This document shows, piece by piece, positions 3,441-54,628 of a stretch of DNA of 64,000 nt (position 1 is its first letter; each line of letters starts with the position of its first letter). The notes beneath the pieces are model-generated. The model searched no databases. It was given only the letters and a program-made list of their open reading frames with translations, and was not told where the DNA came from. This DNA is from a virus (Duplodnaviria; Caudoviricetes): the IMG/VR virus record IMGVR_UViG_3300014000_000001, positions 168,791 to 232,790 of that record; one strand, written 5' to 3'. The position numbers were made by a program, and so were the translations under genes.

Positions 3441-3451
3441 AGGTTTAAAAC

Positions 3452-5086: not shown

Positions 5087-5107
5087 TTAACACAGAGGTA
5101 AATAATC

Positions 5108-6808: not shown

Positions 6809-6811
6809 ATA

Positions 6812-6841
6812 AAGATCTCCCTGCCTCGGCAGGGAGATCTT
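6812..6841. terminator. Bidirectional terminator-like hairpin between convergent genes
   Basis: aagatctccctgcc-tc-ggcagggagatctt with A/T-rich flanks. Confidence 0.8.
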
Positions 6842-6856
6842 ATTATTCTTTTTTTG

Positions 6857-34380: not shown

Positions 34381-34473
34381 ATATTTACACCTGCGTATGT
34401 TATGAAATGGTCATCCTAATCATATCAAATGACATAAAGAGACCGCTATTATAATTTGCTCTCGGAGAGAATC

Positions 34474-36276: not shown

Positions 36277-36288
36277 TTGGAGTCTTCC

Positions 36289-39200
36289 ATGACTTTTGAT
36301 CCAAGACATGAAATTGGAGAGGATTACGAGGGAGTGAGTCCTCGCCACTCCCAAGTTAACGAAGTTCGGGAATTCACCAACGACTCAAACACACGTTTGT
36401 TCATGCCCGACTGTGGACCTTTCTATAAAAACTCTTTGAGTATTAAAAACATTGCCGATGGTAAACCACTTGTTCAGGATATTGATTACCGTTGTCTGAT
36501 AATGGATGACGTAGCTACTGAAAAATCAGGAAAAGAAGTATGTGGGTTTATCGAAGTACTTGATACTAACATTTCTTCTGTGATTTATGATTATCGGTTT
36601 GTTGGTGGTGGACATAGTACAGGTTACTTTGTTTTACGCCATCTTATGCAGATGTATCCAGATGGTATCAATGCAATCACTGAATGGTCAAACATCTTAA
36701 ACCTACCTACTGAATTTGATCCATCTTATCATACTCACCATGTACGTGAGATTTTTAATACTGAACAGATGTTAATTTGGTTAGAGCGTATTCGTTGTGG
36801 TGTGATTGAGTTCTATACCGAAAACTTTAAAGCTATTTACGATGCAGCTCAAACGCGTATTGATAACCTGTATAATAAGTTAGATACAGAATATGTTAAA
36901 ATAACCAATGAAATTTTAGCGATATTTAATAAGTTAAAAATTCAGGGTGAAGAATATATTCTTACCGATAATGCGACCAATCCAGCAAGTGAGCGTGGTT
37001 ACGGTAATTGGGTTCTCGTGAAGAACACCATTCTTTACGGTGCGGCAAATACCTTTGTGGTTGGTACAGGTACTTTGATGGCGTTGGGGTCAGAACAACT
37101 GATTCGTAACACCTATATTTGGAAGAACGTAGAAAACAAAACTCAACCAAGTTATAGCCTAACCGCTGATAAGCAAGCGATCAATGAAGGGGATTCAATC
37201 ACCTTTACGATCAAGGCTTTAAATACTGGAGTGTCCAGTATGGCGTTGGATTGGGAAATCGTTGGTGCGGATGCTCTAGATATTGTGGGTGGGTTAGCGA
37301 CAGGTAAAGTAACTCTAACAGGTTCAAATGCGTCAACAGTCACAGTTACTTTTGCAAAGGATCGAAGAACTGAAGGGGATAAAACCTATTACTTCAAGAT
37401 TCGTAACGTAGCTGACTTAGATGTTGCCTTTGTCGTGAACGATACATCGGTAACTCAAACTGTAGGATTGGAATTTCGCAAAACCAATATCGGCGCAGTG
37501 AGCTCAATTCTTGAAGATGATACGGTAACTCTTGCGATTAACACAGTAGGTTTTAATGGTAAGACACTTAATCTTACTTGGAGTGGTTTAACTAATGCTG
37601 ACTTCTCACAACCACCACCTACCAGCGTTGCAATCACGAGCAATACTACATTATTAGAGCTTAAAACTGTAGGTAACCTGAAAGCAGATGGCGATCGTAT
37701 TTTGAAAGTTGAAGCGCGTGATGCTGCTGATACTTCTTACCTTGCTGCAAGTGCTCAGGTGTTGGTTAAAGATACCTCATTGAGTTTAGAAGCCTCTATT
37801 TCATTTATTGTTAATGGACTACTTACCACAACAGTCAATGAAGGGAATAATTTTAATATCCGCATCAATACTAATGGTGGTGTTGGAAGAAAGCTACGTC
37901 TTGAATACTCGAGTAATAAACAATTAACAGAGTTCTCTGGGTTACTTGAACAGGTAACCATTCAAACTGGTAATGTGGTTGAAATTACAGCTCAGCATCA
38001 CGAAAACAATGCAACTGCTTTGGTTCAAGAATACTTACGGGTTAAAGTATTTGATGTTAACACAAACATTCAATTGGATGATAAAATCCTACAGTTTAAG
38101 GATACTTCACTTACACCAAATTACGTAAGTTATTTCTCTAGTGACGCCGCAGGTACGAATGAAATAACTGAGGTGAATGAGGGGTCTAAATTCTACTTTA
38201 TCATGAAGGTAGCTAATTGGGTTCCTGGGGCTGATCTCCCTACCAATGACTTTAACTACTTATTGAATGGGGTTACTCAAACTCTTCCTAATCTTCAAGC
38301 ACGAATTACAAATGGTTTTTACAACCGTTTAATTTTCGGAGGCACCAACAATAAAACAGGCGTAACTTGGAGTGGGGGTAATCAGTTAGCGATTGAATTT
38401 ACTGCGGTTGCCGATCAAAAGGTATCTGGGGATACGGATTTCTCAGTACAGGTAAAACCAATTGCTGTAGCGAATTGGGAAATTACTCGCAGTATCCGAA
38501 TCAACGATACATCAATAGCTGCTATCACAGCCCAGTGGTCATCAGCTCAAAATACATTAGTTCCAATCTCATCAATTGATGAGATGAATAGCGTTGGAGA
38601 AAATAAAACTGCTTGGTTATGGCTTGGAACAACTGGCGATTTACGTGGTTTAGGGGACTTGCAATTAGATGTCTCTGGTAATATCCAAGAAGATGACTTT
38701 GTAACTACTTTCCCAATCACGACTAAATTTACCGCAGTTAATCAAACCTTAAAAATCCCAGTCACCGTACGTGCAGATTTCACCACAGAAGGAACTGAGT
38801 CATTTACCTTAACTGCTTCGTATCAGACCAATAAAGGTTTACGTCGTAATTTTGCAAGTGCTTATCTTACTGTGAATGATAACTCAAATGAGCTACCATT
38901 GAGCGTAGCGCTTTCTGGGACGAATAATGATGTTGCAGGTTATAGCGAGTGGAAACCCATCACTGTAACAGTAACATCTGCAGTATTGGCTTACGCGACA
39001 AATGTAACAGCTTTGATCCAGTATGAAGATGGTTCTGATGCAACTGAGCGCTTTCAACAAATTGCATTAACTGGTAGCCATCCTGCAAACAGTTCCACTA
39101 TGAATCTAACTTTGATTCCAAAGGCGAATCGTAAAACTTATAGTAAGAATAACTTTAAGATTACGACCATCCGTAACCTTAGCGATGGAACACAAATTTC

Positions 39201-41802
39201 AACAGGAAACACTACACCATTTAAACTTAAGAATGACTCCACTCCACCTAGTGTGGTGATTGAGGCTTATAGTGATAGTGGGCGTACCACTCAAGCGACT
39301 AGCTTAGATGAGGGTAAAACCTATTATGGTCGAGTGAAAATCACAAACCCGAACCCTAAAACAGTATTAGCTGTAAACAACCCATTTGCTAGTGAAACGA
39401 CGAAAACGGGAACAGAGAAATTCGTTGGGCGTGATCAAAATCTGGTGATTCATAGCACCTCTAATAAAGTTGCTAAGGTTATTAATCCAGTCAATGATTA
39501 CACTGTGGATATTTATGATTTTAGTTTCAGTTTGGTAAATGATAGAACCACGAATTCCAATCAACGTTGGTTAAGGTTGGTGGCTTTAGCAGATACGGTG
39601 AACTCTTCATTGGCACTTAATGCAGTTTATCCAAACGATGATGTTGTGGGTAATGCGGGCATTTACAGAGCTTTACTTGATTTGAAGATCAATGATATTT
39701 CTAAGACAGCAACATTAGGTTTCCAATATTTAAACAGCGGCGGTTCTTCTGTTACAACCCTCAATGAGGGAGATGTAATGAAAGTAAGAATGAATTACAC
39801 CAATGCAACTGTTGGGGATCAATATTACCTAACATTAGATTCAACGTCTGCAGTTGATCTTACTCGGTTTGAGTATCACGATTTCGAAACTCGGAAAACA
39901 GCAACTGCAACAAGTGGTACCTTAGAGTGGAGTTTTAAATTTCTAAATAACCGTTTTACTAACGGGGATAAGATTCTTAAAATTGACTGTATGAATGAAA
40001 CAGGAAATATCAAATATGATCTTCCTGATTTTACGTTAGTCGACACCTCTAAAACACCATCTATTGATATTAGTTGGGGTTATGAAAGTGCTTTAATTAC
40101 CTCAGTAAAAGAAGTTACGAATAATAGCCCCTATACCATTACGGTGGTTGTTGATAATGCCACAAGTTCAGAACAAGTCACACTACAAAACATTGGTGGT
40201 AGACCATTAACTGATTTTGCATCACATGAGTTTAATACCTCAAAAGCAACAACGTTAGTAAGTGATAATCGTTATCAAGCTGTGTTCAATTTCAAAATGA
40301 AACCGAACATGAAAGATGATACAGTTAATACGATCAATGTACGTGCGACGACTTCCAGCTCACCAACTGTGACTAAGGATTCTAGTATTACTGTTTTAGA
40401 CACCTCTAGAACCAGAAGTATCACTAAAACTGAATGGAGAAATTCAGCCAGTCCAAACGGTGGAAGTATCATTACATCGGTAAACGAAGGCCAAGCTGCT
40501 TATCTTCATGTTTACACTACAGGTGGTGAGGACATTTACGGGTTAAAACTCACTAACAATGGCGGGCGTAGCGCTTCTCGTTTAGCGCAAGGAACGTACG
40601 ATAGTATTGCCAATCGAACAGGTTCAGATACTGCGGCAGTAGTCTGGTATTTCAGTCCTGCATTAGATGGTCTTACTAACAATGGAGATGAAACTCGTTT
40701 ACGGGTTAAGGTTGAAATCGCCGATGATTCCACTAAGAACATATCTGCAGAGTTACCTATCAATGATGTATCTGTGGATACCACTGGCGTGTTCTTAACT
40801 GGGAGTGGAGACACTGTTGACGAAGGTACTGCTTACAATGTTGCTGCTCGTTTAGACCGTATGGCGGTTGGGGTCACTTTTAGAATGCGTGCGACAACAG
40901 CTCATGGGATTGACTTATCAGGTTCTAGTGCGAACTGGAAGAGTATGGGAAGCGGAGTTTATCAATATGATTTCTCAACTTCAACTTATCAAGAAACTTT
41001 TAATGTGACTAATTTACCACTTAAAATTTCTGCAGATAGTAAAATTACTCCTAGTAATGAGTTGAGTATTTTATACGAATTAATTGATGTAACTAAGAAC
41101 CGTGTACTTGCAACCCGTACGGTTACGATTAATGATACTTCTAAACCAAACCCAGAGTATAGTATTAAATTAGTTGCAACAAATAATGCGAATGCCCCAG
41201 CTATCAGTAGTATGAAAGAGGGGGAGACTGCTTATATTGTGGTCACTACAAAATACTTCACAGGTCAGTTGAATATTGCTTATAGTGGGCAAAGTAGCAC
41301 TAATGCCAACACACCATTAGTACCACCAGATATGACTGCGACTCGTTATTTTGATATCACCGAGTATAATGGTCAATCTGTAGTCTTACCGTTTAGAACT
41401 CAAAAAGATGAAAGTTGGAACAATGGCGGTAACAGTACTATCGTGTTGAAGAATTCTAGTTTTAATTCTTTGGCTTCAGTTGGTTTCACTATTGTGGAAA
41501 ACTCAATCCCTGCTTCATTTGGGTCAGTTTATTGGGCATCAGACGCAGCAGGTGTAAATGTACTCTCTAACCAAACCTGCAGTGAAGGTGATACAGTTTA
41601 TTTGATTGCTAAAACTGTCGGAATGGAACCTGGAGTTCCAATCAATGTTAGTTGGGGTGGTTCAACCACTAATGCTGATGACTTCAGTGAGGGAAGTACC
41701 GCGTCACCTGTAGCACTTTATGTAACGAACTACAACGCTAATGACTTTACTGGCATGGTGGTGTACAAGATGACGCTTAAAAATGATCTACGTTTAGGTT
41801 AA
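36289..41802 (+). CDS. Giant fibre A: baseplate anchor plus 13 Calx-beta/Ig-like repeats, last one incomplete
   Basis: Repeats of the form NEG...D..TEG...I.DTS; ends KNDLRLG*; ATG 36289 with GGAG RBS. Confidence 0.8.
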   Translation: MTFDPRHEIGEDYEGVSPRHSQVNEVREFTNDSNTRLFMPDCGPFYKNSLSIKNIADGKPLVQDIDYRCLIMDDVATEKSGKEVCGFIEVLDTNISSVIYDYRFVGGGHSTGYFVLRHLMQMYPDGINAITEWSNILNLPTEFDPSYHTHHVREIFNTEQMLIWLERIRCGVIEFYTENFKAIYDAAQTRIDNLYNKLDTEYVKITNEILAIFNKLKIQGEEYILTDNATNPASERGYGNWVLVKNTILYGAANTFVVGTGTLMALGSEQLIRNTYIWKNVENKTQPSYSLTADKQAINEGDSITFTIKALNTGVSSMALDWEIVGADALDIVGGLATGKVTLTGSNASTVTVTFAKDRRTEGDKTYYFKIRNVADLDVAFVVNDTSVTQTVGLEFRKTNIGAVSSILEDDTVTLAINTVGFNGKTLNLTWSGLTNADFSQPPPTSVAITSNTTLLELKTVGNLKADGDRILKVEARDAADTSYLAASAQVLVKDTSLSLEASISFIVNGLLTTTVNEGNNFNIRINTNGGVGRKLRLEYSSNKQLTEFSGLLEQVTIQTGNVVEITAQHHENNATALVQEYLRVKVFDVNTNIQLDDKILQFKDTSLTPNYVSYFSSDAAGTNEITEVNEGSKFYFIMKVANWVPGADLPTNDFNYLLNGVTQTLPNLQARITNGFYNRLIFGGTNNKTGVTWSGGNQLAIEFTAVADQKVSGDTDFSVQVKPIAVANWEITRSIRINDTSIAAITAQWSSAQNTLVPISSIDEMNSVGENKTAWLWLGTTGDLRGLGDLQLDVSGNIQEDDFVTTFPITTKFTAVNQTLKIPVTVRADFTTEGTESFTLTASYQTNKGLRRNFASAYLTVNDNSNELPLSVALSGTNNDVAGYSEWKPITVTVTSAVLAYATNVTALIQYEDGSDATERFQQIALTGSHPANSSTMNLTLIPKANRKTYSKNNFKITTIRNLSDGTQISTGNTTPFKLKNDSTPPSVVIEAYSDSGRTTQATSLDEGKTYYGRVKITNPNPKTVLAVNNPFASETTKTGTEKFVGRDQNLVIHSTSNKVAKVINPVNDYTVDIYDFSFSLVNDRTTNSNQRWLRLVALADTVNSSLALNAVYPNDDVVGNAGIYRALLDLKINDISKTATLGFQYLNSGGSSVTTLNEGDVMKVRMNYTNATVGDQYYLTLDSTSAVDLTRFEYHDFETRKTATATSGTLEWSFKFLNNRFTNGDKILKIDCMNETGNIKYDLPDFTLVDTSKTPSIDISWGYESALITSVKEVTNNSPYTITVVVDNATSSEQVTLQNIGGRPLTDFASHEFNTSKATTLVSDNRYQAVFNFKMKPNMKDDTVNTINVRATTSSSPTVTKDSSITVLDTSRTRSITKTEWRNSASPNGGSIITSVNEGQAAYLHVYTTGGEDIYGLKLTNNGGRSASRLAQGTYDSIANRTGSDTAAVVWYFSPALDGLTNNGDETRLRVKVEIADDSTKNISAELPINDVSVDTTGVFLTGSGDTVDEGTAYNVAARLDRMAVGVTFRMRATTAHGIDLSGSSANWKSMGSGVYQYDFSTSTYQETFNVTNLPLKISADSKITPSNELSILYELIDVTKNRVLATRTVTINDTSKPNPEYSIKLVATNNANAPAISSMKEGETAYIVVTTKYFTGQLNIAYSGQSSTNANTPLVPPDMTATRYFDITEYNGQSVVLPFRTQKDESWNNGGNSTIVLKNSSFNSLASVGFTIVENSIPASFGSVYWASDAAGVNVLSNQTCSEGDTVYLIAKTVGMEPGVPINVSWGGSTTNADDFSEGSTASPVALYVTNYNANDFTGMVVYKMTLKNDLRLG

Positions 41803-44800: not shown

Positions 44801-47426
44801 TAAAGCTCGACGTCGTTTGGTTTCAGGGAATAAGATTATCGGGATGAATGAGAATATTCCATTTACCCTTTTGGATGACTCTGTACCAATGACAATTGTC
44901 ACTAAAACCTATAAGGATGCTGCTCGAACCCAAGAGAGTACAATCTTTAATGAGGGTGATATCGTTTACGGTCGCACAGTGGTAAGTAACCCAAGCGGGG
45001 ACTATTTTCTCACCAACAATATCACTACAGGTAACAACGACACCACAGATGCAACCTATACCTATTTAGGTGCAACTGGAACTGTAGTCACTTATGCTGA
45101 TCAGCAGAAAGTGAAAAAGGTATTTAGCGCAGTTGCGGGTGTGGTGAGTTACACGGATGATTTTGCAATCACTCTTAGACGTAACCGAACCACTCAAGCT
45201 AAACCACAAGTAATTAAGGTAGGTGGTATTGTTTGGAAGAATACGGGTAATTGGGTTGTTGGAAACACTTACCCATCCGTGTGGGATGATACCCAACTTA
45301 ACTCAGTGAAAACAATCACCGTAAATGACTCTTCCAAAACCCCTAGCTATGTTGTAAACGCAGGCTTAACTGAAAACTCAGCGCGAGCTGATAACTTTGA
45401 TGAAGGGTTAGCTTTTGTTGTTTCTTTGAACATTAGTGATGGTGAAATTGGAGATGTTTATACTCTAACAAAGACAGGTAACTTTGAACAAGAGCGGCTA
45501 GAGGTGAGCCAATATGGTGTTGAACAAGTAACCAACGCCTATAACCAACGCTTAAGTTGGAATTTCAAATCGTATATTGGTCGTAACACCAATACTTGGA
45601 CAACTTTAGGTTTTGATGTTTGGAATAAAACCACAGGCCTTAAGATTGGACATATTGATGTCAACATCAATGATATTTACAAAACTCCAACCTTACAAAT
45701 GCGTTGGATGATTGGTACAACTGATTACGCTGTGGATATCGATGAGGGTGATTCTCGCTATGAAGTTGTAGTTACTGGTGATCAATATTTGTTAGGTGAT
45801 GAAGCTATTAAGTTAAGCATTGTTTCTGGACGCCCACTTGCAAAATATGGCAACTCCGCTAATTTTGATAAATGGTATCCAGTAAATATTGTAAATGGTG
45901 TCCCTACAGTTCGTATCCCTGTTTATCCGTTGGCAGATAAATACACCAACCCGGCAGCGGAATTGATCGCAAACCTAAAGGCTGTTACTTCGGTTACCAA
46001 TGCTTCAGTTACTTTATCTCGTGCAATCAATGATAATTCCCAAACCCGCGCATACACTCTAGTGGGGTGGTATTATCCAGGTGGGACAACTCCAATCTCT
46101 TCAGTAAATGAAGGTGATACGGTTGAGATGCGGGTTAAGGTCACGGGAGGTACTGATATTGTTCCAGTTAAACTCACTAACAACGGTGGTAGAACCGAAT
46201 ACATCACCCACGAGTACGGTGTGACTAAATCGAGAACTTCTGATAATGCTGAATTGACTTGGACGTTCACTATCGGGAAGGATTTTAGAGATGCTACAGG
46301 TGATCAGATGCGACTACGAGTTAATCTTGAGATCACCGATACTTCGAGTACAACACGAACTGAAACCCTACCAATTAATAACACCAGCGTTGCGTCAGCG
46401 GGTGCGTGTAATTTCTACGCTAGTGGTACATCTACAGTAATTACTTCAATAAAAGAAGGAAGTAATTTTGATGCAAACTTCCAACTGAGTAAGTGGAACA
46501 CTGGTAGTAATTATCGCTGTTTAACTAAGTCCTCAAGAAACGGAACAGAGTGGAAAGTAGATTCAACCAGTATAGGTAGTAATTGGACAACCTCAGGTTC
46601 AAATAAGGTAATTAAGTTCCCATTATCTGTTAATGGAGATTCAACCACAAATACAGGTGGGGAACTTTATATCACTTCTGAACTTTGGGATATGGATGCG
46701 GGTCGTTTATTAGCGAGTAGTTCACTCACTATTATCGATATATCTCGTGAACCTTTAAGCACTAACGATATGCGAATTGCAGCAGTAGGTGGAACTGCAC
46801 AGATTTCCCAAATTAATGAAGGGAATACCGTAAGGCTCTATTTCTTACCAAGTTGTTTTGCGGGCACGGATTGGTCTGACAGTAAGCAATTTTATTGGTG
46901 GTTAGGTAATCCAGGCGGTGGAGCTAATTCCAAGTTCGCCGATGGCTATATCCCTCAATCAAGTTTAGCGGGTGATGGATCGTATAGCGTTAATGTTCCA
47001 ATTCCAGCAAATGAAAGTACCGATGGTGATCGTACAGTTAGAATTGAACTCTATGAAATGTTTGGTTCTGGTAACGGTACTTACTTTAGAGGTAACTCTG
47101 CTAATTGTGTAATTAAAGATACATCTATTACACCATCAATTGATCAGGTCTACTGGGCGTGGGACTCTGCTGGAGGTAATCCAATTTCGGTCAACGGATC
47201 AGCCAATGAAGGTGACACAGTTTATCTGATTGTACAAGGTAAAGGTCTAGCTAACAATGGTGCAGATGTGACGGTAAGTTTGAATTGGGACGGCACAGCA
47301 TCTGCAGCAGATTTTGATACAACTCTCCCATCCTCTGTTACATGTAAACAATATACCACTGGTAGCACAACTTACTATCTTGGTTCCGTTCAGGTGAAAA
47401 TCAAAGCAGATGGAGTTGAAGGTTAA
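41877..47426 (+). CDS. Giant fibre B, full-length paralogue of fibre A; last Calx-beta/Ig-like repeat incomplete
   Basis: Collinear with fibre A (e.g. NP...RGYG.WV.V.NTIL.G...SEQ/NEQ..RNTYIW); ends KIKADGVEG*. Confidence 0.8.
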   Translation: MLNENAIEDFQGTDISHFIPNEVRKNINLQIERVIIPAYGSFLVHTLKPRHINTKLPLTRGKDYEILSIDERATLKAGREVAHGFVLINENIPGVEYDYHFIGGLYSNGKYLMDEVKKRYPNGITPNFVFDYIKGKPETYPAKDHIHSAHDTYGYDGVNKQLDRVIHGIERGADTNLANIYIRASDKLAEMETTTTNDINTIRQKLTDAFEALRVQQGEYIFTDSLDNPSILRGYGTWVRVTNTILKGAQSDIIVGDGTLLLKGNEQPLRNTYIWMNKDSIVAPTYTLSIQGVTKTNNKWPVNENTTFKVLIQTTGIAKNTKLAWLITGIDDQYIDASVSKMTGEFVINDLGQATVDVRLLDNPNELGNRECVFMLEHIANTSLNILVQDTIRAKWVEMFFSHDNLGKVKAVRINEGEIVYLQLKFYGYSVGEDIYLDWSQSTVLSNEFEIVPPSLLSATASTMTVALKVKANQLTDGERSLIVYSKNAPLDAVSSTDSVAYVFVQDSSVSTNVNIDFKSTTGTILTSLSEGDTFSISLTTLLPKDSVLELIYETSKSLDEFTGLQSTVTIDVNGKASFNVTNAVDFLTNEGVQLFKVTARYQGQDVSTNSIIIKDTSQTPKYTMTITAPNSTTPIAKVNEGDDFWVRLAVAGWVNTPYPPTIVFNYGLNDDYSANSKVRDRVNSSFHDRLPYSNAAGSYNDVSWVNGAELILKMTAIADRKFSGNAKFNVSMKQSNMDQFLLQSSVQIMDTSVLDIATAWSSSGVILNPITQVNEMQTDGSNNTFYLWMDVDGDGSLFNDITINATGSATASDFVTVFPSVVNFDTGKSRKIFAITLLSDFLNEGNESLTLYGTYVDVNGKVTEVFRTSITIIDNSILVPLDVKLSTSNTDPDAAPSGGKFSEYGVIYAHVTFPAYVMNTNIEWDVWTLTGTAANGQVTPVNGVVNAPTGSSGVVIQINPIADRLQDGEFKGLIKARRRLVSGNKIIGMNENIPFTLLDDSVPMTIVTKTYKDAARTQESTIFNEGDIVYGRTVVSNPSGDYFLTNNITTGNNDTTDATYTYLGATGTVVTYADQQKVKKVFSAVAGVVSYTDDFAITLRRNRTTQAKPQVIKVGGIVWKNTGNWVVGNTYPSVWDDTQLNSVKTITVNDSSKTPSYVVNAGLTENSARADNFDEGLAFVVSLNISDGEIGDVYTLTKTGNFEQERLEVSQYGVEQVTNAYNQRLSWNFKSYIGRNTNTWTTLGFDVWNKTTGLKIGHIDVNINDIYKTPTLQMRWMIGTTDYAVDIDEGDSRYEVVVTGDQYLLGDEAIKLSIVSGRPLAKYGNSANFDKWYPVNIVNGVPTVRIPVYPLADKYTNPAAELIANLKAVTSVTNASVTLSRAINDNSQTRAYTLVGWYYPGGTTPISSVNEGDTVEMRVKVTGGTDIVPVKLTNNGGRTEYITHEYGVTKSRTSDNAELTWTFTIGKDFRDATGDQMRLRVNLEITDTSSTTRTETLPINNTSVASAGACNFYASGTSTVITSIKEGSNFDANFQLSKWNTGSNYRCLTKSSRNGTEWKVDSTSIGSNWTTSGSNKVIKFPLSVNGDSTTNTGGELYITSELWDMDAGRLLASSSLTIIDISREPLSTNDMRIAAVGGTAQISQINEGNTVRLYFLPSCFAGTDWSDSKQFYWWLGNPGGGANSKFADGYIPQSSLAGDGSYSVNVPIPANESTDGDRTVRIELYEMFGSGNGTYFRGNSANCVIKDTSITPSIDQVYWAWDSAGGNPISVNGSANEGDTVYLIVQGKGLANNGADVTVSLNWDGTASAADFDTTLPSSVTCKQYTTGSTTYYLGSVQVKIKADGVEG

Positions 47427-47429
47427 TAA

Positions 47430-47449
47430 AAGGTGGGGAAACCCACCTT
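47430..47449 (+). terminator. Short GAAA-loop hairpin
   Basis: aaggtggg-gaaa-cccacctt. Confidence 0.55.
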
Positions 47450-47468
47450 CTAATTTAGGAATCTAAAC

Positions 47469-48965
47469 ATGGCAATTAATGAAACAATTACTGCGACAGC
47501 TTCTTTAACTACTTCTGGTGGGAAGAATTTAAGTTTACGTGGAAATACCTTAACCATTAACGATACATCAAATAACGATATAGTTATTGATATTACTAAA
47601 GACTGGAAAACCTCGGCAGCATCAAGTGCTTATGGTGGTTTATACATTAAACCTACATTAAATTTATCAAACGAAGTAAAAGCTCGTTTCGGTGGGTTTG
47701 AATCAGGTAAGCGTTATATTTTTAGAATCGCGAGTGATGTGGTGCTTTTAGCAAATAGCACATCAGCTCAAGCGATAATGGATGGAGATTGGCCATCCAC
47801 GATTGAAAACCCAAGAGTGGAAAACTATGGCTTGATTATGGGGCGTGGTGGTAATAATGGTGTGGGGGGTGGTTTGAATGGACGTAATAGTTATTACACG
47901 CCTAAAATTAAACCAACGGTTGGAGGTAGTGCGATCGGTAGTATTAGCGCCCCTATATTAGTAAACAATTATGGTGGGATATGCTCGGGTGGTGGTGGTG
48001 CTGGGTCAAACACTGAGTATTCTCAATATTCTAAGATCAGTGGTAGTAATCAGGATTATTACTCCGTAATGATAGCTGCAATTGCATCAGGTGCAGGTGC
48101 TCCTTTTGGGGTCACAACGCGTGATATTAACGTCCATAATGATATTGTGATAATGAATCAGGCTATGCCTTGGTTCAGTGGGCGTTCAGCAACATTTAAT
48201 AGTAATGAGTTAGTTACTCCCTACAATGCTAACCTTAACTACGTTAAATATGTAACTATTCGAGTAAACTACCAGGATAACACACTAACGTTGACGGATA
48301 CCAAAATCAACAACACTCGAAGTTTTAATGTTCAATCTTACCCACAGTGGTGGGCTGATCGCAGAAACGCGGGTAATGGTCCAGAAATCGGCTATCTTTT
48401 CAACTATAAACAAAATAACACCAAGAATTATCGACCACCGTATAATGGGGACCCAGCAGATCAAGGTGGTTATTTGGATAGCGTTACTCCTGCAGGGTTG
48501 TTTAGGGGAGGTCGTGGAGGTAATCCAGAAGTGAATTTAATGTTTGACCTATATCTTATGCGTTTTATACCGTGTATGACTCCAGCACAGTCACAAGTTT
48601 GGCGTGATCGTTGGCGTGGCGCTAATGGTGGGGATGTTGGCAAGTCAGGTAATGCTGGAATCAATACCCCTCTTTGGACGATGAACTATCAATCTGCCAA
48701 TAGAGCCAATTATCGTTATTTAGAGGGAGCTCAAGGAACCATGTGGGGTGTGGGCGCTACCGCAGATAACTACTATTATGGAACCACTGATGGTGGGGCT
48801 GCGGCAGGCCCATTGACTATTGGTAACGTCACTATTAATAATCTAAATGGGGGTGTTACTGGAGGTGACGCTGTACTGGACAAATACGACCCTAACGGGA
48901 CGTTTGATGTTAACGCTCGAGCCGCTGCAAATAATGTAACTTTAGAATTTCCATGCATCTATTAA
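47469..48965 (+). CDS. T-even gp38-like polyglycine adhesin with an N-terminal Calx-beta F-G strand segment
   Basis: GRGGNNG, NNYGGICSGGGGAG, GAGAPFG, GGRGG, GGDVG and GGAAAG in gp38-like order; AGGA RBS. Confidence 0.75.
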   Translation: MAINETITATASLTTSGGKNLSLRGNTLTINDTSNNDIVIDITKDWKTSAASSAYGGLYIKPTLNLSNEVKARFGGFESGKRYIFRIASDVVLLANSTSAQAIMDGDWPSTIENPRVENYGLIMGRGGNNGVGGGLNGRNSYYTPKIKPTVGGSAIGSISAPILVNNYGGICSGGGGAGSNTEYSQYSKISGSNQDYYSVMIAAIASGAGAPFGVTTRDINVHNDIVIMNQAMPWFSGRSATFNSNELVTPYNANLNYVKYVTIRVNYQDNTLTLTDTKINNTRSFNVQSYPQWWADRRNAGNGPEIGYLFNYKQNNTKNYRPPYNGDPADQGGYLDSVTPAGLFRGGRGGNPEVNLMFDLYLMRFIPCMTPAQSQVWRDRWRGANGGDVGKSGNAGINTPLWTMNYQSANRANYRYLEGAQGTMWGVGATADNYYYGTTDGGAAAGPLTIGNVTINNLNGGVTGGDAVLDKYDPNGTFDVNARAAANNVTLEFPCIY

Positions 48966-49032: not shown

Positions 49033-52000
49033 ATGGCTTTAATATTCCCGTTTGACTCAACATTAAAAGGCTATGTCGAAGAAGTAGAAATTAATATCTC
49101 TAATCTCGAATATCCAATTTTCACCTTCCCTAAAGGTTCGTTCTTTGTATCTGAACTTTACGGTATTGTTAAAGGCACTAGAACTATCGTTCGCCCTGGA
49201 CTTGATTTTAAAGTACTTAGTTTAAATGAAACCATTCAATTTAATGATAGCGATACTAACTTAAATACCACTTTAAAACAAAACTATGTTCGTAACGGCA
49301 TTCTTTGGTGTGGCAGGCAAGACGTTGGTACGATTGTTTGGAAGGTACCTTATTGTGGCGGTGAAGACAGTAATAAACCTGCTCAATACAGTAACTATAT
49401 TGCCACACTTTATAACCAAGCTCGCACGCTAGGCACAATTAACCTATATGGAATTAAACAACAAGCTTGGGGTGGATTTATTCATCCTGAAAATAAACAA
49501 ATTGTATCGGGACGTGATATCTATAATAAGTATTTTGACTACTATGAGGACATCAATAACAACGGCGGTTTGGGTTGGGGTAAAGTTCATCTTTCAATGA
49601 TGGCATTAGCCGAGGTTGTTGCAAATGGTGGAGATCCAATGGAGATTCAAGCCTTTTACGACTGGCTTAGAAAATATGAAATTGAATACACCAAATACAA
49701 AGATAGCATTGTTGCTAATTTAAACCAACAAATTGAAAACCTTGATCAAAAGCGGGTAGGGTTTGAGCAGTTTGTTTATTCTAATGGGAATTACAATCAT
49801 TACAGTAAGCACAATTATAAAGAATTGAATAATGTAATACTTCGTGGTTTAGATCCTGACGAAACTGGGTTTCAATTAAACCCAATTAAAACCAACAGAA
49901 ATAATGTAGGTCATTATGCCTTAGGTGTATGGGGTAATGACTTTGATCTAAAAGCAACTCGATTATCACAACGTAAATCCATTGCAATAGATACGAGTCC
50001 GTTTAAAATATCAATCACCTATGTAAAACAAACTACCTCAGGTAGTAATCCACGTAACATTCAATATGGGGTTAAATTTGAAAATATAGAAAAAGCATCG
50101 AGCGGAGTCTATACCGCTTATATTATCTCTAAACGTTTAGGGGTGATTGCAACGTTGGATGTAAGTAGATATATCACGGGATTAAGTGGAAGCTCTACGA
50201 TTGGGACCTCAGCACAATACCCTGGAGGTAGTACTGATTATGCTGATGATATTATTTTCATTTTTGTAGCCAATGAAAATATGCAGACCGATTTCATGGC
50301 TGAGGTGGGTCGTTTGCGTTACATTAGCTATACTCGTAACTATGGTTACACGCTTAGCGTTGACACTCGTGGGTTGATTATTACTAATGGGGAGTTGATT
50401 TCTAAAAACCCTGAATTAGACTTAACGCAAGATAATGCAATTGGAACCAGTAGTGTTGAAGTAACGATCACTCGCCAGTTCTCTGATTACGTTGAGACAA
50501 ACTATTTAGCTGCGGTGGATGTAAAAGATATTGGTAGTGCAATCAACAATACAGTGAACGCAATGGCGACAATCAATTGGGCTGCAGGTGAAACCAAAAA
50601 GATTGTTAAGGTGAGTAATAGTGACGGGTTATTTACACGTGACACCACAGTTGCAATCCAACTCCATCGCACTAATCAAGTGAATGTTCCAATCGCAACA
50701 AGACAAATCCTCGCTACGGTACTTGTGGGTCAGCGTAAGAGTACTACAAATAACGTAGCTTACATTGAACTCTTAGATAGTGAAGAAAATGGTAATCCAG
50801 TTACTTTACCAAAAGACGGTACTCGTTACTATTTATCGGTGCAATACGCTAAGAACTTTAACTTTCACCGAGTAAACCCTACACTGAAAGTGGCTAACAT
50901 AGTGGGTAACCCTGGTAACGTTTTGATGGGTACTCCAAAATTCATCGATGTGGGTCATGTTATCTACCCGATTCAGTTTTTAGATTTCAAACCAACCGCA
51001 GGATTAAATTACTTTGAAACTTCGCTTGAATTGGTTGACCCAAATAGCTCTTTTAGCACCAATCGCATTAACTTATATATTGCTCACCAATCGGTAAATT
51101 TTGCAGGAGCTGGTACTTTTAATCTGGTTGAGTTTCTTACAGTGGAAGCAATAGGCGGAGTGATCACTACGTTTAGATATCGCCCAACTAATCTAGGGGT
51201 GATTCCAAACCTAACTGCGTTTAACTTGTCTTTATCGAATAATGCTACAGTGGTTAATCCTCCTATCTACCTGAATGATCAATTGGAATTTAGTTTTTTC
51301 ACCCCAGATGCATCGATAGGTAAGCCTGTTAATATTGAGGTTAGTTATGTTAATGCTTCAGGGCAAAGTGTAACCGTAGTCAATATGGTGAACACTTATA
51401 ACTTTAGAGGAGCTAGATTAGATTTTATTTCTCCTTCAAATATGGCGATTATTAACCGCCCACGACTAGGGGAGCCATTTAAGATCCGTTATCGCGGTGA
51501 GTTTAACGTAACCCCAACTAAAGTATCGGTAAGTATTGATACTACTATGAGTGATCGCAATAATGTTAATTGGAGCGGGGATGCACCTGATCTACAAAAC
51601 CCAACATTGAGTGGGGTTGTTGTGGCGAGTGATAAAACTGCTTGGGTGAATGCTGGAACACAAATTAGTGTAGCTGAAGTTATCAACACGACAACATATC
51701 AAGATTACGCTAAGGTTTATTTTAAAGTGGTGAGTGAATTCCCAGATGGTACAACTAATGTTAGCTTGGTAATGAAAGAATTCTTAATTGAATCCTTCGA
51801 TATTAAATTCTATCGATTAGGAAGCAACGAAGAAATCACCGATGGTGTGTTTGTAAGTGGTACATCAGCAATTATGTCTGTTACTTCCAAAACTATTGAT
51901 CTAAGCTCGATAAATTATGTCACAATTTATGGAAGTGGTTTTGTGTATAAAAACCTAATAGTAGATGCAACGAACAACACTGTTAAAGCGGTGTTCGACA

Positions 52001-52095
52001 TCACTACGGTATCTGATGGGCCTTTTAGTCCAAAGATTTCAATTGGAGGCTATGAGGTTTATGAGCGTAAACAATTCAGAATTGTCGCAGCTTGA
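49033..52095 (+). CDS. Fibre C: diverged anchor plus Ig-like domains (1020 aa)
   Basis: FPFD..GSFF..PGLDFKVL anchor related to fibres A/B; EQFVYS..ELNNVILRG segment; INWAAGETKKIV Calx-beta-like strand. Confidence 0.7.
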   Translation: MALIFPFDSTLKGYVEEVEINISNLEYPIFTFPKGSFFVSELYGIVKGTRTIVRPGLDFKVLSLNETIQFNDSDTNLNTTLKQNYVRNGILWCGRQDVGTIVWKVPYCGGEDSNKPAQYSNYIATLYNQARTLGTINLYGIKQQAWGGFIHPENKQIVSGRDIYNKYFDYYEDINNNGGLGWGKVHLSMMALAEVVANGGDPMEIQAFYDWLRKYEIEYTKYKDSIVANLNQQIENLDQKRVGFEQFVYSNGNYNHYSKHNYKELNNVILRGLDPDETGFQLNPIKTNRNNVGHYALGVWGNDFDLKATRLSQRKSIAIDTSPFKISITYVKQTTSGSNPRNIQYGVKFENIEKASSGVYTAYIISKRLGVIATLDVSRYITGLSGSSTIGTSAQYPGGSTDYADDIIFIFVANENMQTDFMAEVGRLRYISYTRNYGYTLSVDTRGLIITNGELISKNPELDLTQDNAIGTSSVEVTITRQFSDYVETNYLAAVDVKDIGSAINNTVNAMATINWAAGETKKIVKVSNSDGLFTRDTTVAIQLHRTNQVNVPIATRQILATVLVGQRKSTTNNVAYIELLDSEENGNPVTLPKDGTRYYLSVQYAKNFNFHRVNPTLKVANIVGNPGNVLMGTPKFIDVGHVIYPIQFLDFKPTAGLNYFETSLELVDPNSSFSTNRINLYIAHQSVNFAGAGTFNLVEFLTVEAIGGVITTFRYRPTNLGVIPNLTAFNLSLSNNATVVNPPIYLNDQLEFSFFTPDASIGKPVNIEVSYVNASGQSVTVVNMVNTYNFRGARLDFISPSNMAIINRPRLGEPFKIRYRGEFNVTPTKVSVSIDTTMSDRNNVNWSGDAPDLQNPTLSGVVVASDKTAWVNAGTQISVAEVINTTTYQDYAKVYFKVVSEFPDGTTNVSLVMKEFLIESFDIKFYRLGSNEEITDGVFVSGTSAIMSVTSKTIDLSSINYVTIYGSGFVYKNLIVDATNNTVKAVFDITTVSDGPFSPKISIGGYEVYERKQFRIVAA

Positions 52096-52107: not shown

Positions 52108-52596
52108 ATGTTTAATATAAAATTTAGCCGAGAAGGGGCAATGGTGTACTCAAAACAAGCCAGTCAGATTCTCGGTAAGAATTATTGGTATTTACGAGAT
52201 GATGTGAAGGTGAGGATTGAGTTTAAATCCCTAGTTTGGAGTTTCATTATTCCTCAAGGTTATCTAACTGATGGAGCTACCGTACCTCGTCTCGCTTGGA
52301 GTATCGTTCCACTTTGGGATGAATGTACCAATGCTGTATTGTTGCATGATTATTTATGCAATTACTCAGTAACGTCAACAGACGGGGAACTCTATCCTTT
52401 AAACCGTAAAGATATTGATCTGTTATTTTTACGGACAATGGAGTTCTATGGAGTACATTGGTTTAAACGTAAATTAATGTATGGGTGTGTGCGTCTTTGG
52501 GCGAAACTCTTTAAATATGAAAAACCAATGATCTCAACCAAAAAATATGAAATGGAAGAGATGATTCGTGAAAACATTCGATTGGGGTATTACTAA
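52108..52596 (+). CDS. DUF1353 family protein
   Basis: TDGATVPR...AVLLHDYLC...RKDIDLLF...KRKLMY.CVR. Confidence 0.8.
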   Translation: MFNIKFSREGAMVYSKQASQILGKNYWYLRDDVKVRIEFKSLVWSFIIPQGYLTDGATVPRLAWSIVPLWDECTNAVLLHDYLCNYSVTSTDGELYPLNRKDIDLLFLRTMEFYGVHWFKRKLMYGCVRLWAKLFKYEKPMISTKKYEMEEMIRENIRLGYY

Positions 52597-53552
52597 TGGC
52601 TGATGAATTAGTACAAGCGAAATTATCATTTACTATGCCTATTCGTGGAACTACGGTATCTGTGAATGCACCGCCTTTGATAGTAAAAGATAAAGTTCCT
52701 ACCTTTAGTTTAGTGCCAGCCTCAACATCAGTCAATGAGGGATCAACTTTCTGGATCACTTTGTTCACGAGCAATATTCCAAGAGATGGTTCAGTTAAAG
52801 TGAGATGGTGGTTAGATTGGTTGAATGGTTCTGGTGCGAATGATGTAGTCGGTGGTGCTGGAAATCCATATGTGGTTTATTTGGCTTCGGATGGTACTCA
52901 TCGAATGGGGTGGGATATTATTGCAGATAATCTAACCGAAGGCACTGAATCATTCAATGTGCGCTGTCAGGTGTTCAGAGAGAGTGATAATTATCAATAT
53001 GCTGATCTTAGTTTGAATGGGATCTATGTGAATGATACGTCTAAAAATAGTGTCAACTACTATAATTTATCAAATATCAAAGATGATAAATCTCAGATAT
53101 TAAGATATAGTCGATACGATAGTTATCCAAGTTATCACAATGATGATGGAGGGACAATCTGGGTTGGAGGTAACGATAGCGCATATGGGTCATTGGATCC
53201 ACAAAGCGTTGTGTTGGCAGGTAATACATATACCATCGATTATATGACCATTATATCATCACTCAATAATACGGGTGAATATTATTCGTATATATCTTTA
53301 CTCCTTAAAGGGGATAACCCAGCGCAGTTGGCAAAACTAAATAAATCCACAGTTAGTATTGTGATCAATGGTATGGAAATTCCTTTATTTTGCTACATGA
53401 CTTTACAAAATGGTGACATCTATAAAGGATTTAGTAACACTGATCGCGTCGCAGTGATGGATTCTGGAGGAGCCACTGTGCCTTTCCCTAGTAATGCTTC
53501 CTGGCTTAACATCCCAGCATCTGGAAGTATGCTGTTCAAATACACAGGCTAA
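52596..53552 (+). CDS. Putative fibre tip protein: N-terminal F-G strand segment, one full Calx-beta repeat, C-terminal tip domain
   Basis: ...PLIVKDK then VNEGST...IADNLTEGTESF...VNDTS; YGSLDPQSV...TIDYM. Confidence 0.7.
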   Translation: MADELVQAKLSFTMPIRGTTVSVNAPPLIVKDKVPTFSLVPASTSVNEGSTFWITLFTSNIPRDGSVKVRWWLDWLNGSGANDVVGGAGNPYVVYLASDGTHRMGWDIIADNLTEGTESFNVRCQVFRESDNYQYADLSLNGIYVNDTSKNSVNYYNLSNIKDDKSQILRYSRYDSYPSYHNDDGGTIWVGGNDSAYGSLDPQSVVLAGNTYTIDYMTIISSLNNTGEYYSYISLLLKGDNPAQLAKLNKSTVSIVINGMEIPLFCYMTLQNGDIYKGFSNTDRVAVMDSGGATVPFPSNASWLNIPASGSMLFKYTG

Positions 53553-53563
53553 CATCATAAACG

Positions 53564-53593
53564 AGATAGAGCATCCCTAGGGATGCTCTATCT
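53564..53593. repeat. CCTAGG-centred perfect palindrome (30 bp) between convergent genes
   Basis: agatagagcatccctagggatgctctatct. Confidence 0.85.
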
Positions 53594-53604
53594 TTAATTA
53601 TGCT

Positions 53605-53627
53605 CAAATATATATTATCTAATTGAT
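53605..53627 (+). promoter_or_regulatory. Phage early promoter-like motif, copy 5, pointing antisense into the spike gene
   Basis: caaatatatattatctaattgat abutting the spike stop codon. Confidence 0.6.
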
Positions 53628-54628
53628 CAGTGTGGTGTCGAGGTATCTTTCCCATCGCCTTGTTCAGTGTGAACGTGAGTATCCCCAATATTAGTTCCAT
53701 TATGACTAAGCTCAGATACATTGAATTTAACCCCAGCGCCCGTCATGGTCATTCCACCACCTGTATTCATGGTACCTGTAGTATAATCAAAAGATAAACC
53801 ACTACCACTCCAATTAGTATTTGGATAAGTCCCCGTAAAGGTTTCTCCATTCATGGTGGTTTGGGTAGTTTCAGCAATCAAATGCTCTGTGACAATCTTC
53901 ACTTCTTCACTGGCTTGAATTAGGATCTTAGTTTTATCTATCTTAACCGTGGAGTTATCCATGTTGTATAGTTCGATTAAACTATTCATGGAGTCTAACA
54001 ATAACCCATTACCTAGCGTGTCTGAGAGTGAAAAGTTACTATCTTTGTAATTCAATTGAAGCGTGTATCCACACTTCTCCCCATCATTAGTGGGTGTCAT
54101 TAGTGTAATATGTTTATCTACTGTATTAAACTCTAAGAACACACTATTAGCTGCTGTAAGTTCAGTGGCACTTTCATCAATGGTATTAGAGAACACTAAC
54201 AACATAATATCACGACGACGTAAGTGGTTGGAGGTACCCATTAACTCCCAATAGAATTGATCGGTATCCCCTACACGCCAAATAATGACTTCCTCACCAC
54301 GGCGTACAAGTCCTGGGGTTTTAAGCCAAGGATTGCGTGATAACCACTTAGCCCGAATCGCGTTAGAAGCAGTTACCTTCTCTGAATAGTTGTTTCCATT
54401 ACCATCTACACCTGTCGTGGTGTAGTCTGAGATATTATCGGTAACCTCACCGTCTGCATAGGTTCTACTTTCTGATGGGAAAACAGATAGCTCAGTTTGT
54501 CCTACTTGTAGATTAGCTGCAGCTATACCTACTGAATACATTTGTAAAATTGATGCACTACCTTTACCTAAAGTACGTGTGCCTGCAGGATTACTCTTTT
54601 GGTAATCCTGTATATTCGTTTCATTCAT
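53627..54628 (-). CDS. Baseplate central spike / cell-puncturing protein (phiKZ gp164-like)
   Basis: YSVGIAA.N, AKWL..TPGLVRRGEEVIIWR..DTDQFYW, beta-helix repeats, C-terminal HNGTNIGDTHVH. Confidence 0.8.
   Translation of the reverse strand: MNETNIQDYQKSNPAGTRTLGKGSASILQMYSVGIAAANLQVGQTELSVFPSESRTYADGEVTDNISDYTTTGVDGNGNNYSEKVTASNAIRAKWLSRNPWLKTPGLVRRGEEVIIWRVGDTDQFYWELMGTSNHLRRRDIMLLVFSNTIDESATELTAANSVFLEFNTVDKHITLMTPTNDGEKCGYTLQLNYKDSNFSLSDTLGNGLLLDSMNSLIELYNMDNSTVKIDKTKILIQASEEVKIVTEHLIAETTQTTMNGETFTGTYPNTNWSGSGLSFDYTTGTMNTGGGMTMTGAGVKFNVSELSHNGTNIGDTHVHTEQGDGKDTSTPH

What the first reader, a model, noticed from the sequence alone, without database searches (positions are those of the whole stretch)
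52596..53552. Second candidate plug-in tip, encoded about 11 kb from fibre A
Seen: the N-terminus MADELVQAKLSFTMPIRGTTVSVNAPPLIVKDK (52596-52694) has the xE-hxhxh...hxhxD pattern of an F-G hairpin. It is followed by one complete Calx-beta repeat and an unrelated C-terminal domain. That makes two incomplete fibres and two F-G-led small proteins. Its distance from either fibre gene excludes readthrough. Inference: it is the partner of fibre A, or the tips are interchangeable and give combinatorial receptor use.
Basis: partly seen in the sequence, partly recalled or inferred. Interest (0 to 1): 0.75.

Follow-up and report, generated by a model that had tools for sequence, protein, structure and literature searches.

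The report
Second plug-in tip for phage fibre
This small gene of a giant phiKZ-like phage most likely makes a swappable host-recognition tip that clips onto a long tail fibre by supplying the two beta-strands missing from the fibre's last domain, a way of joining phage fibre parts that I could not find described.

Summary
ORF 52596-53552 (318 aa) has a 35-residue N-terminal beta-hairpin, one complete Calx-beta-like repeat (34-147) and a C-terminal domain with one known relative.

- **Sockets and anchors.** In the 232.8 kb genome only fibres A and B carry this repeat besides it. Both end inside their last repeat, at an invariant D-x-x-x-G. Only two proteins start with the matching hairpin: this one and the 498-aa protein after fibre B.
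- **Conservation.** Three to four related phages keep the hairpin while the rest of the protein is replaced. Against a near-identical phage, DNA mismatches go from 0 (52412-52702) to 52% just after the hairpin.
- **Docking model.** A controlled complex prediction (0.69, best control 0.00) puts residues 4-33 into fibre A's last repeat, as strands F and G. This is a model, not a measurement.
- **Open points.** Fibre A against fibre B is unresolved. Two anchor classes tied to gene position favour dedicated pairs. One relative has one cut fibre and two tips, which favours sharing. The C-terminal fold and the host are unknown.

The scan already reported the fibre B/tip 1 half of this system on the same window. 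This is its second member.

The parts
52596..52700 (+). Anchor: residues 1-35 of P0001, a predicted two-strand beta-hairpin supplying strands F and G
   Evidence: It is 36/36 identical to P0003, while the rest of the protein is 32-52% identical. There are 0 DNA mismatches to L002 up to 52702. An anchor HMM built from relatives scores it 47.8 bits. It is the only part of P0001 contacting fibre A in the complex model.
52695..53039 (+). One complete Calx-beta-like repeat (residues 34-148) with its own F and G strands
   Evidence: Full-length repeat-profile match. 176 proteins in the exhaustive search match this stretch. AF2 pLDDT is 79-96 with a full set of strands. Foldseek gives NCX1/CALX CBD hits.
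53040..53552 (+). Variable C-terminal domain (residues 149-318) plus stop; putative receptor-binding part, fold unknown
   Evidence: Its only relative is P0003, at 32% identity. There is no Atlas hit. AF2 confidence is low (pLDDT 47 alone; under 50 for 151-201 in the full model). It lies in a block that is 52% mismatched between near-identical phages.
41512..41802 (+). Socket A: cut last repeat of fibre A (residues 1746-1841), ending ...KNDLRLG, plus stop
   Evidence: The repeat-profile match stops early (profile positions 9-65 of 114). The terminal D and G are invariant in 8 fibres. It holds nearly all the contact residues in the complex model (a few lie at 1709-1715 of the preceding repeat). 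The stop is followed by a hairpin.
36277..41802 (+). Fibre A, 1841 aa: N-terminal phrog_2163 domain, then about 13 Calx-beta-like repeats
47127..47426 (+). Socket B: cut last repeat of fibre B (residues 1751-1849), ending ...KADGVEG, plus stop; the alternative docking site
47469..47570 (+). Anchor of tip 1 (P0005 residues 1-34), the paralogous hairpin
   Evidence: It scores 46.4 bits against the anchor HMM. It ranks first of 601 N-termini against the fibre F-G profile (17.5 bits, E 2e-4). hhalign against the tip 2 anchors gives E 4.6e-9.
52108..52596 (+). DUF1353 / phrog_1158 'tail assembly chaperone' gene, translationally coupled to P0001
   Evidence: In L007 it follows the P0008-like fibre and not a tip, so it probably serves that fibre.
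53564..53593 (.). Perfect 13-bp palindromic hairpin between P0001 and the convergent baseplate gene; likely a two-way terminator

Best explanation
P0001 is a small modular tip protein of a phiKZ-like jumbo phage. Its first ~33 residues form a beta-hairpin equivalent to strands F and G of a Calx-beta-like (Ig-like) repeat.

Fibre A (1841 aa) is a string of such repeats, and its last repeat stops at the D-x-x-x-G turn just before those two strands. After translation the hairpin inserts into that open sandwich. Strand 7-12 pairs with the fibre's C strand (1788-1793). Strand 23-28 pairs with its A' strand (1748-1753). This completes the fold and lengthens the fibre by P0001's own full repeat and its variable C-terminal domain, which would contact the host.

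Shown here:
- the cut fibres;
- the two anchors;
- their conservation;
- the sharp change from conserved anchor to variable body.

Predicted: the docking geometry.

Inferred:
- presence in the virion;
- receptor binding by the C-terminal domain;
- the choice of fibre A over fibre B.
For: 1. Sockets. Fibres A and B and six homologues all end at one alignment column with invariant D and terminal G. Repeat-profile matches for the last repeats stop at profile positions 65 and 71 of 114.
2. Anchors. An HMM built only from relatives' anchors finds exactly two proteins among 601 ORFs: P0001 (47.8 bits) and P0005 (46.4 bits). The next-best hits are F-G segments of internal repeats of fibres A and B. 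The two anchor classes are homologous (hhalign E 4.6e-9). 38 phmmer alignments to multi-repeat proteins run through P0001's N-terminus and align it with the end of the preceding repeat.
3. Conservation. Positional orthologues P0162 and P0163 share only the first ~32 residues and have unrelated glycine-rich bodies. P0003 is 36/36 identical in the anchor, 52% in the repeat and 32% in the C-domain. Window against L002 DNA shows no mismatch in 52412-52702, then 445 of 849 positions differ.
4. Complex prediction of fibre A 1623-1841 with P0001 1-150: ipSAE 0.69 (runs 0.68-0.72), best of 3 controls 0.00. That mark was reached by 58 of 80 solved complexes and 2 of 110 mismatched pairs. The runs share at least 85% of contacts and partner pLDDT is at least 76. 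Contacts involve only residues 4-33 of P0001, almost all with the fibre's last repeat.
5. Pairing. Tip 1 sits 42 nt after fibre B in every genome, which leaves fibre A for tip 2. Anchor class follows gene position even where bodies have crossed over: P0162 in the tip 2 slot and P0165 in the tip 1 slot are 37% identical (E 6e-50), yet each carries its slot's anchor.
Against: - P0001's own N-terminus does not score against a profile of F-G segments from complete fibre repeats (0.9 bits). The tip 2 anchor family scores only weakly against it (E 0.014).
- An in-silico join of fibre end and tip start did not raise a generic repeat-profile score.
- The complex pass may reflect the model's memory of intact Ig-like folds. 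Close cousins of a true partner also pass, so it does not separate fibre A from fibre B.
- L007 has one cut fibre and two anchored tips, so one-to-one pairing is not a rule of the family.
- Socket contact positions show only a few fixed A/B differences.
- There is no virion proteomics, no host and no structure.
- The gene is 10.8 kb from fibre A and next to another fibre gene (P0008).
Confidence: 0.55

Rival explanations
1. Same plug-in mechanism, but the tips are not dedicated. P0001 and the 498-aa tip 1 compete for the sockets of both fibres, so virions carry mixed combinations.
For: The two anchors are homologous (E 4.6e-9) and both sockets end at the same invariant D...G. L007 has one cut fibre followed by two tips whose anchors are about 60% identical, so sharing a socket occurs in this family. 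Few contact positions differ consistently between A and B.
Against: Two distinct anchor classes have stayed tied to gene position across three diverged genomes while bodies were exchanged. Sockets A and B are only about 26% identical over the last two repeats. Both facts fit specialised pairs.
Confidence: 0.22
2. P0001 is a virion or baseplate-associated protein that attaches elsewhere, for example to the neighbouring 1020-aa fibre P0008 or to the convergent baseplate protein. The N-terminal hairpin would be a relic of gene fission or serve another contact.
For: P0001 is translationally coupled to the DUF1353 chaperone-like gene that follows P0008. The variable DNA block covering its body runs into the C-terminal part of the convergent baseplate gene, up to about 54226. 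The F-G likeness of P0001's own N-terminus is statistically weak.
Against: A relic would not stay 100% identical and be kept across relatives that replaced everything else. P0008 ends in a complete domain with no cut repeat, and no repeat of this type occurs outside A, B and P0001. In L007 the tips are not next to DUF1353. The complex model puts the hairpin in fibre A with controls at 0.00.
Confidence: 0.13
3. P0001 docks on fibre B only, and the 498-aa tip 1 docks on fibre A.
For: Nothing specific. The A-with-tip-2 prediction cannot exclude it, because cousins of a true partner can pass.
Against: Tip 1 lies directly after fibre B in all genomes. Between near-identical phages, socket B, the intergenic spacer and the tip 1 anchor form one conserved DNA island.
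Confidence: 0.04

Closest known systems
Donor-strand complementation in chaperone-usher pili (Fim, Pap, Caf1, Saf); from established knowledge
   Same: An Ig-like fold is encoded incomplete, and an N-terminal extension of the next protein completes it in trans, giving a non-covalent but fold-level joint.
   Different: Pilins lack one strand (G), whereas here two strands (F and G) are missing. No periplasmic chaperone or usher is involved and assembly would be cytoplasmic. It is a single terminal joint, not a polymer. The context is a phage tail fibre. None of this was tested at the bench.
T2/T6/S16-type gp38 adhesin on the gp37 long tail fibre tip (PF05268; PMC3157838, PMC12032242)
   Same: A small, separately encoded, modular and monomeric adhesin has an N-terminal attachment part and a hypervariable receptor-binding part, and it caps the distal end of a long fibre. 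The bodies of tip 1 and of tip 2 orthologues in related phages are glycine-rich, and one (P0164) scores 23.4 bits against GP38 (cut-off 25).
   Different: P0001 has no GP38 match. Its attachment part is a 33-residue hairpin homologous to part of the fibre's own repeat, not a globular attachment domain on a trimeric fibre tip.
phiKZ gp131-family fibres (gp131, gp133, gp134, gp135 share an N-terminal segment; PMC13250141)
   Same: The phage group is the same: the baseplate protein is about 30% identical to that of SPN3US-like phages. Several fibre paralogues share an N-terminal baseplate-docking domain: phrog_2163 in the 606-aa protein, fibre A and fibre B.
   Different: In phiKZ the distal end is a seven-bladed propeller within the same chain. 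That paper describes no split terminal domain and no separate tip.
Calx-beta repeat adhesins of bacteria (PF03160)
   Same: The repeat is the same. 176 homologues were found, mostly very large multi-repeat proteins, and several hit Calx-beta.
   Different: In those proteins the repeats are complete and in one chain. One related phage fibre, the 1076-aa protein of L008, also ends in a complete repeat.

Membership tests
Calx-beta domain (Pfam PF03160) | Match to the Pfam model above its gathering score | tested here: not met
   There is no Calx-beta hit on P0001 at E <= 0.1. Homologous repeats in P0011, P0012, P0014 and P0022 pass as whole proteins (28-44 bits, cut-off 27), matching mainly profile positions 65-102.
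Calx-beta domain (Pfam PF03160) | Ig-like beta-sandwich fold resembling the NCX/CALX calcium-binding domains | tested here: met
   The AF2 model has pLDDT 79-96 for residues 31-150. Foldseek top hits include NCX1 (E 3.4e-5), CALX1.1 CBD12 and 2dpk (TM 0.59 by target).
Donor-strand-type complementation joint | The acceptor domain is genuinely encoded without its last strand(s) | tested here: met
   Eight fibres from five or more phages end at the same column, D-x-x-x-G. The stops are real and followed by hairpins. The profile match to the last repeats is cut short.
Donor-strand-type complementation joint | The donor carries a surplus N-terminal strand or hairpin that its own fold does not need | tested here: met
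   P0001's own repeat matches the repeat profile from position 1 to 113, and AF2 gives it a full set of strands after residue 36. Residues 1-33 are additional strands.
Donor-strand-type complementation joint | The donor strands occupy the vacant positions of the acceptor fold | tested here: inconclusive
   This is predicted only: ipSAE 0.69 against controls of 0.00, with strand 7-12 on the C strand and 23-28 on the A' strand. No experimental structure exists, and the model may lean on its memory of intact folds.
Donor-strand-type complementation joint | A dedicated chaperone caps the open fold before assembly | not testable with these tools
   The DUF1353/phrog_1158 gene lies upstream, but it tracks the P0008-like fibre in L007. 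No role can be assigned to it.
gp38 adhesin (Pfam PF05268) | Match to the GP38 model, or glycine-rich motif blocks | tested here: not met
   P0001 has no hit. Only the tip 1 orthologue P0164 comes near the cut-off (23.4 of 25 bits).
Phage receptor-binding protein (functional class) | A conserved attachment module joined to a hypervariable distal module, with mosaic boundaries between close relatives | tested here: met
   Identity is 100%, 52% and 32% across the three parts. DNA mismatches go from 0 to 52% at position 52703. The body is replaced in L005 and L006.
Phage receptor-binding protein (functional class) | Present in the virion and binds a host receptor | not testable with these tools
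   This is a metagenomic phage with no host and no proteomics.

The most novel reading that the evidence does not exclude
This clade of phiKZ-like phages uses a split Ig-like domain as a standard connector. Two orthogonal socket/anchor pairs (fibre A with tip 2, fibre B with tip 1) would let each 5.5-kb fibre take a separately encoded, independently exchangeable receptor-binding tip. That would be a natural split-domain 'plug and socket' for host-range modules, and donor-strand-type complementation outside pili, in a virus.
Probability: 0.45. Interest if true: 0.8.

Novelty: new variant of a known kind. Interest (0 to 1): 0.7.

Why it matters
How receptor-binding tips are fixed to phage fibres decides how easily host range modules can be exchanged, in nature and in phage design. 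The known joints are globular attachment domains (gp38 on gp37), trimeric N-terminal adaptors, or retained chaperones. A joint made by completing a split Ig-like domain in trans would be a new docking principle for phage fibres.

It would also explain three observations here:
- these giant fibres end in mid-domain;
- the anchor and the socket are islands of identity between hypervariable blocks;
- there is a short, portable, sequence-defined tag (about 33 residues) that marks tip proteins in unannotated jumbo-phage genomes.

It is directly testable with two small recombinant fragments.

Tried and rejected
- **Fused-repeat scoring.** I joined the fibre end and tip start in a script and scored them with a generic repeat HMM. 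Neither tip raised the score over 601 control N-termini. Local scoring and composition correction made the test uninformative.
- **Generic F-G mini-profiles** from 380 bacterial repeats had no power. P0005 ranked only 7th-8th and P0001 was not in the top 8.
- **C-terminal domain.**
  - Pfam, PHROGs, tblastn against phages, PDB sequence search and the ESM Atlas gave nothing.
  - AF2 on the domain alone gave pLDDT 47, too poor for a fold search.
  - P0004 proved to be a generic repeat protein, not a relative of that domain.
- **More relatives.** Scans of viral contigs (P0001, then the socket alignment) and of metagenome contigs found none. A2 was too diverse to seed a scan. The record behind L002 is not held for genome search.
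- **Readthrough or frameshift from a fibre gene:** rejected, given the double stop, the hairpins and the 10.8 kb distance.
- **Fused ancestor of the glycine-rich tips.** P0022 has Calx-beta repeats fused to a glycine-rich domain, but its body is not detectably related to P0162.
- **Socket contact positions** compared between A and B orthologues showed too few fixed differences to assign partners.
- **Literature.** No paper in the held library joins donor-strand or strand complementation with phage fibres. The library is incomplete.

Full report
**What is there**

The window is the last 64 kb of a 232.8 kb IMG/VR virus record. Its baseplate protein at 53627-54628 (-) is about 30% identical to those of SPN3US, phiKZ-like Erwinia phages and relatives. 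It is therefore a distant phiKZ-like jumbo phage.

The gene order on the plus strand is as follows:

| Gene | Coordinates | Size | Note |
|---|---|---|---|
| 606-aa protein | 34456-36276 | 606 aa | phrog_2163 N-terminus |
| Fibre A (P0006) | 36277-41802 | 1841 aa | phrog_2163 N-terminus |
| Fibre B (P0007) | 41877-47426 | 1849 aa | phrog_2163 N-terminus |
| Tip 1 (P0005) | 47469-48965 | 498 aa | glycine-rich |
| P0008 | 49033-52095 | 1020 aa | no family hit |
| DUF1353 / phrog_1158 | 52108-52596 | 162 aa | 'tail assembly chaperone' |
| Target P0001 | 52596-53552 | 318 aa | this finding |

The shared phrog_2163 N-terminus recalls the phiKZ gp131 family, whose paralogues share an N-terminal segment at the fibre base (PMC13250141).

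**The observation**

- Residues 34-147 are one complete copy of the repeat that builds fibres A and B. That copy includes its own D..TEG turn and its own F and G strands.
- An exhaustive phmmer search found 176 proteins, nearly all matching residues ~33-125 several times over. Some of them hit Pfam Calx-beta.
- P0001 itself does not hit Pfam Calx-beta, but its AF2 model lies next to NCX1/CALX calcium-binding domains. 'Calx-beta-like' is right at fold level.
- Residues 149-318 have one relative only, P0003, and no confident fold.

**The cut fibres**

Fibre A ends ...KNDLRLG and fibre B ends ...KADGVEG. That is the turn which, in every internal repeat, comes just before strand F. An alignment of eight fibres shows them all ending at the same column, with D and the terminal G invariant. 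The eight are A and B of this phage, A and B of two syntenic relatives (L005, L006), and two distant fibres (P0160, P0161).

The stops are genuine. Fibre A has TAA followed by a GC-rich hairpin. Fibre B has TAA TAA, a hairpin and further stops. In the whole genome only A, B and P0001 carry the repeat. A related fibre on L008 ends with a complete repeat, so the cut form is a distinct state.

**The anchors**

I built an HMM from six anchors of other phages only and ran it over all 601 ORFs of the genome.
- It finds P0001 (47.8 bits, E 3e-14) and P0005 (46.4 bits), and nothing else.
- Over whole proteins, the next hits are F-G segments of internal repeats of fibres A and B.
- The two anchor classes are homologous (hhalign probability 96%, E 4.6e-9).

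Tip 1's anchor matches a profile of F-G segments from complete fibre repeats. It ranks first of 601 N-termini at 17.5 bits, and hhalign gives E 4.7e-4.

P0001's own anchor does not match that profile (0.9 bits), and its class matches only weakly (E 0.014). For this protein the F-G identity therefore rests on three things:
- homology to tip 1's anchor;
- 38 phmmer alignments that run through its N-terminus onto the end of a preceding repeat;
- the structure prediction.

**Comparative evidence**

The positional orthologues share only the first ~32 residues with P0001 and then continue as unrelated glycine-rich bodies. They are P0162 (L005) and P0163 (L006), both lying after the DUF1353 gene.

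P0162 sits in the tip 2 slot and P0165 in the tip 1 slot of another phage. They are homologous along their bodies (37% identity, E 6e-50), yet each carries the anchor class of its slot. Bodies move; anchors stay with the position.

Phage L002 is 99-100% identical in DNA over most of this region, with these exceptions:

| Region | Result |
|---|---|
| 52412-52702 (ends one base past codon 35) | no mismatch |
| 52704-53552 | 445 of 849 positions differ |
| Anchor (protein) | 36/36 identical |
| Repeat (protein) | 52% identical |
| C-terminal domain (protein) | 32% identical |

The same pattern surrounds fibre B. Its distal repeats and the tip 1 body diverge, while socket B, the spacer and the tip 1 anchor form a conserved island.

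A third variant, L012, combines a P0001-like tip 2 (99% identical) with a different fibre B (87% identical). This is the signature of host-range modules joined by a conserved connector.

**Docking**

One controlled complex job was available. I folded fibre A 1623-1841 (8-row alignment) with P0001 1-150 (58 rows).
- The score was ipSAE 0.69 (runs 0.68, 0.69, 0.72) against 0.00 for the best of three controls.
- That mark was reached by 58 of 80 solved complexes and 2 of 110 mismatched pairs. These counts hold only roughly, because my own alignments were used.
- The runs share at least 85% of contacts, and partner pLDDT is at least 76.
- Only residues 4-33 of P0001 touch the fibre, and nearly all contacts fall in its last repeat.
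- Residues 7-12 lie against fibre residues 1788-1793 (strand C). Residues 23-28 lie against 1748-1753 (strand A'). The alternate residues of the last fibre strand (1828-1836) face them.
- This is the pairing expected of strands F and G in an Ig-like sandwich.

The tool supports binding but does not show it. The pass may draw on memory of intact folds, and close cousins of a true partner also pass.

**Which fibre**

For dedicated pairs:
- tip 1 directly follows fibre B in all genomes;
- the genome has two sockets and two anchors;
- the anchor classes stay tied to gene position across diverged genomes.

For sharing:
- L007 has one cut fibre and two tips with about 60% identical anchors;
- few socket contact positions differ consistently between A and B.

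I put about 0.55 on fibre A as the partner and about 0.22 on shared use.

**Known or new**

Small separately encoded adhesins on fibre tips are known (gp38 on gp37; PMC3157838, PMC12032242). Donor-strand complementation is known in pili. I found no paper joining the two for phage fibres, though the library is incomplete.

The scan has already reported the fibre B/tip 1 half of this system on this same window (earlier findings e1-5466895 and e1-5466887). The present gene is the second tip. It adds the distal location, the sharp mosaic boundary, the body swap between slots, and the A-with-tip-2 prediction.

Noticed in passing
window 53627-54226 (-): The block that differs between the window and the otherwise 99-100% identical phage L002 does not stop at the end of P0001. 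It runs through the intergenic hairpin into the C-terminal ~200 residues of the convergent 333-aa baseplate protein (phrog_3216), at 59-77% DNA identity, and identity returns to 99-100% at about 54230. The two convergent gene ends may be exchanged as one cassette, or that baseplate protein may also carry a variable, host-facing end.
   Followed up: partly
window 45596-47150 (+): The distal repeats of fibre B are strongly diverged between the window and L002 (45-73% DNA identity). The last repeat (the socket), the spacer and the first 25 codons of tip 1 are almost identical.
   Followed up: partly
L007:10001-18884: A more distant phage (ENA, 140 kb contig) has one cut fibre (P0160, ends ...ADLVPG). 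It is followed by a 396-aa glycine-rich protein without an anchor, then two proteins (431 and 576 aa) with short anchors about 60% identical to each other. That makes one socket for two tips.
   Followed up: partly
L008:60-3290 and 3302-7075: Two adjacent fibre genes differ in state. The first (1076 aa) ends in a complete repeat with its F and G strands. The second (P0161) is cut at ...ADNKDG. The contig ends before any tip gene.
   Followed up: no
L005:15163-16335 and L006:10001-11200: P0162 (tip 2 slot) and P0165 (tip 1 slot) have homologous glycine-rich bodies (37% identity, E 6e-50) behind different anchor classes. Tip bodies have moved between the two slots.
   Followed up: yes
window 49033-52095 (+): P0008 (1020 aa) has no Pfam or PHROG hit. 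Its residues 17-66 weakly resemble the N-terminus of fibre B (35% over 51 residues, E 0.007). It is followed by the DUF1353 gene in all four genome types, so it may be a fourth gp131-like fibre paralogue with its own chaperone.
   Followed up: partly
window 52329-52411 (+): A small patch of 16 mismatches to L002 lies inside the otherwise identical DUF1353 gene. It looks like a short recombination tract.
   Followed up: no
window 47427-47468: Tip 1 starts in the same reading frame as fibre B, 42 nt downstream. The gap holds five stops and a hairpin, so the shared frame looks like chance.
   Followed up: yes
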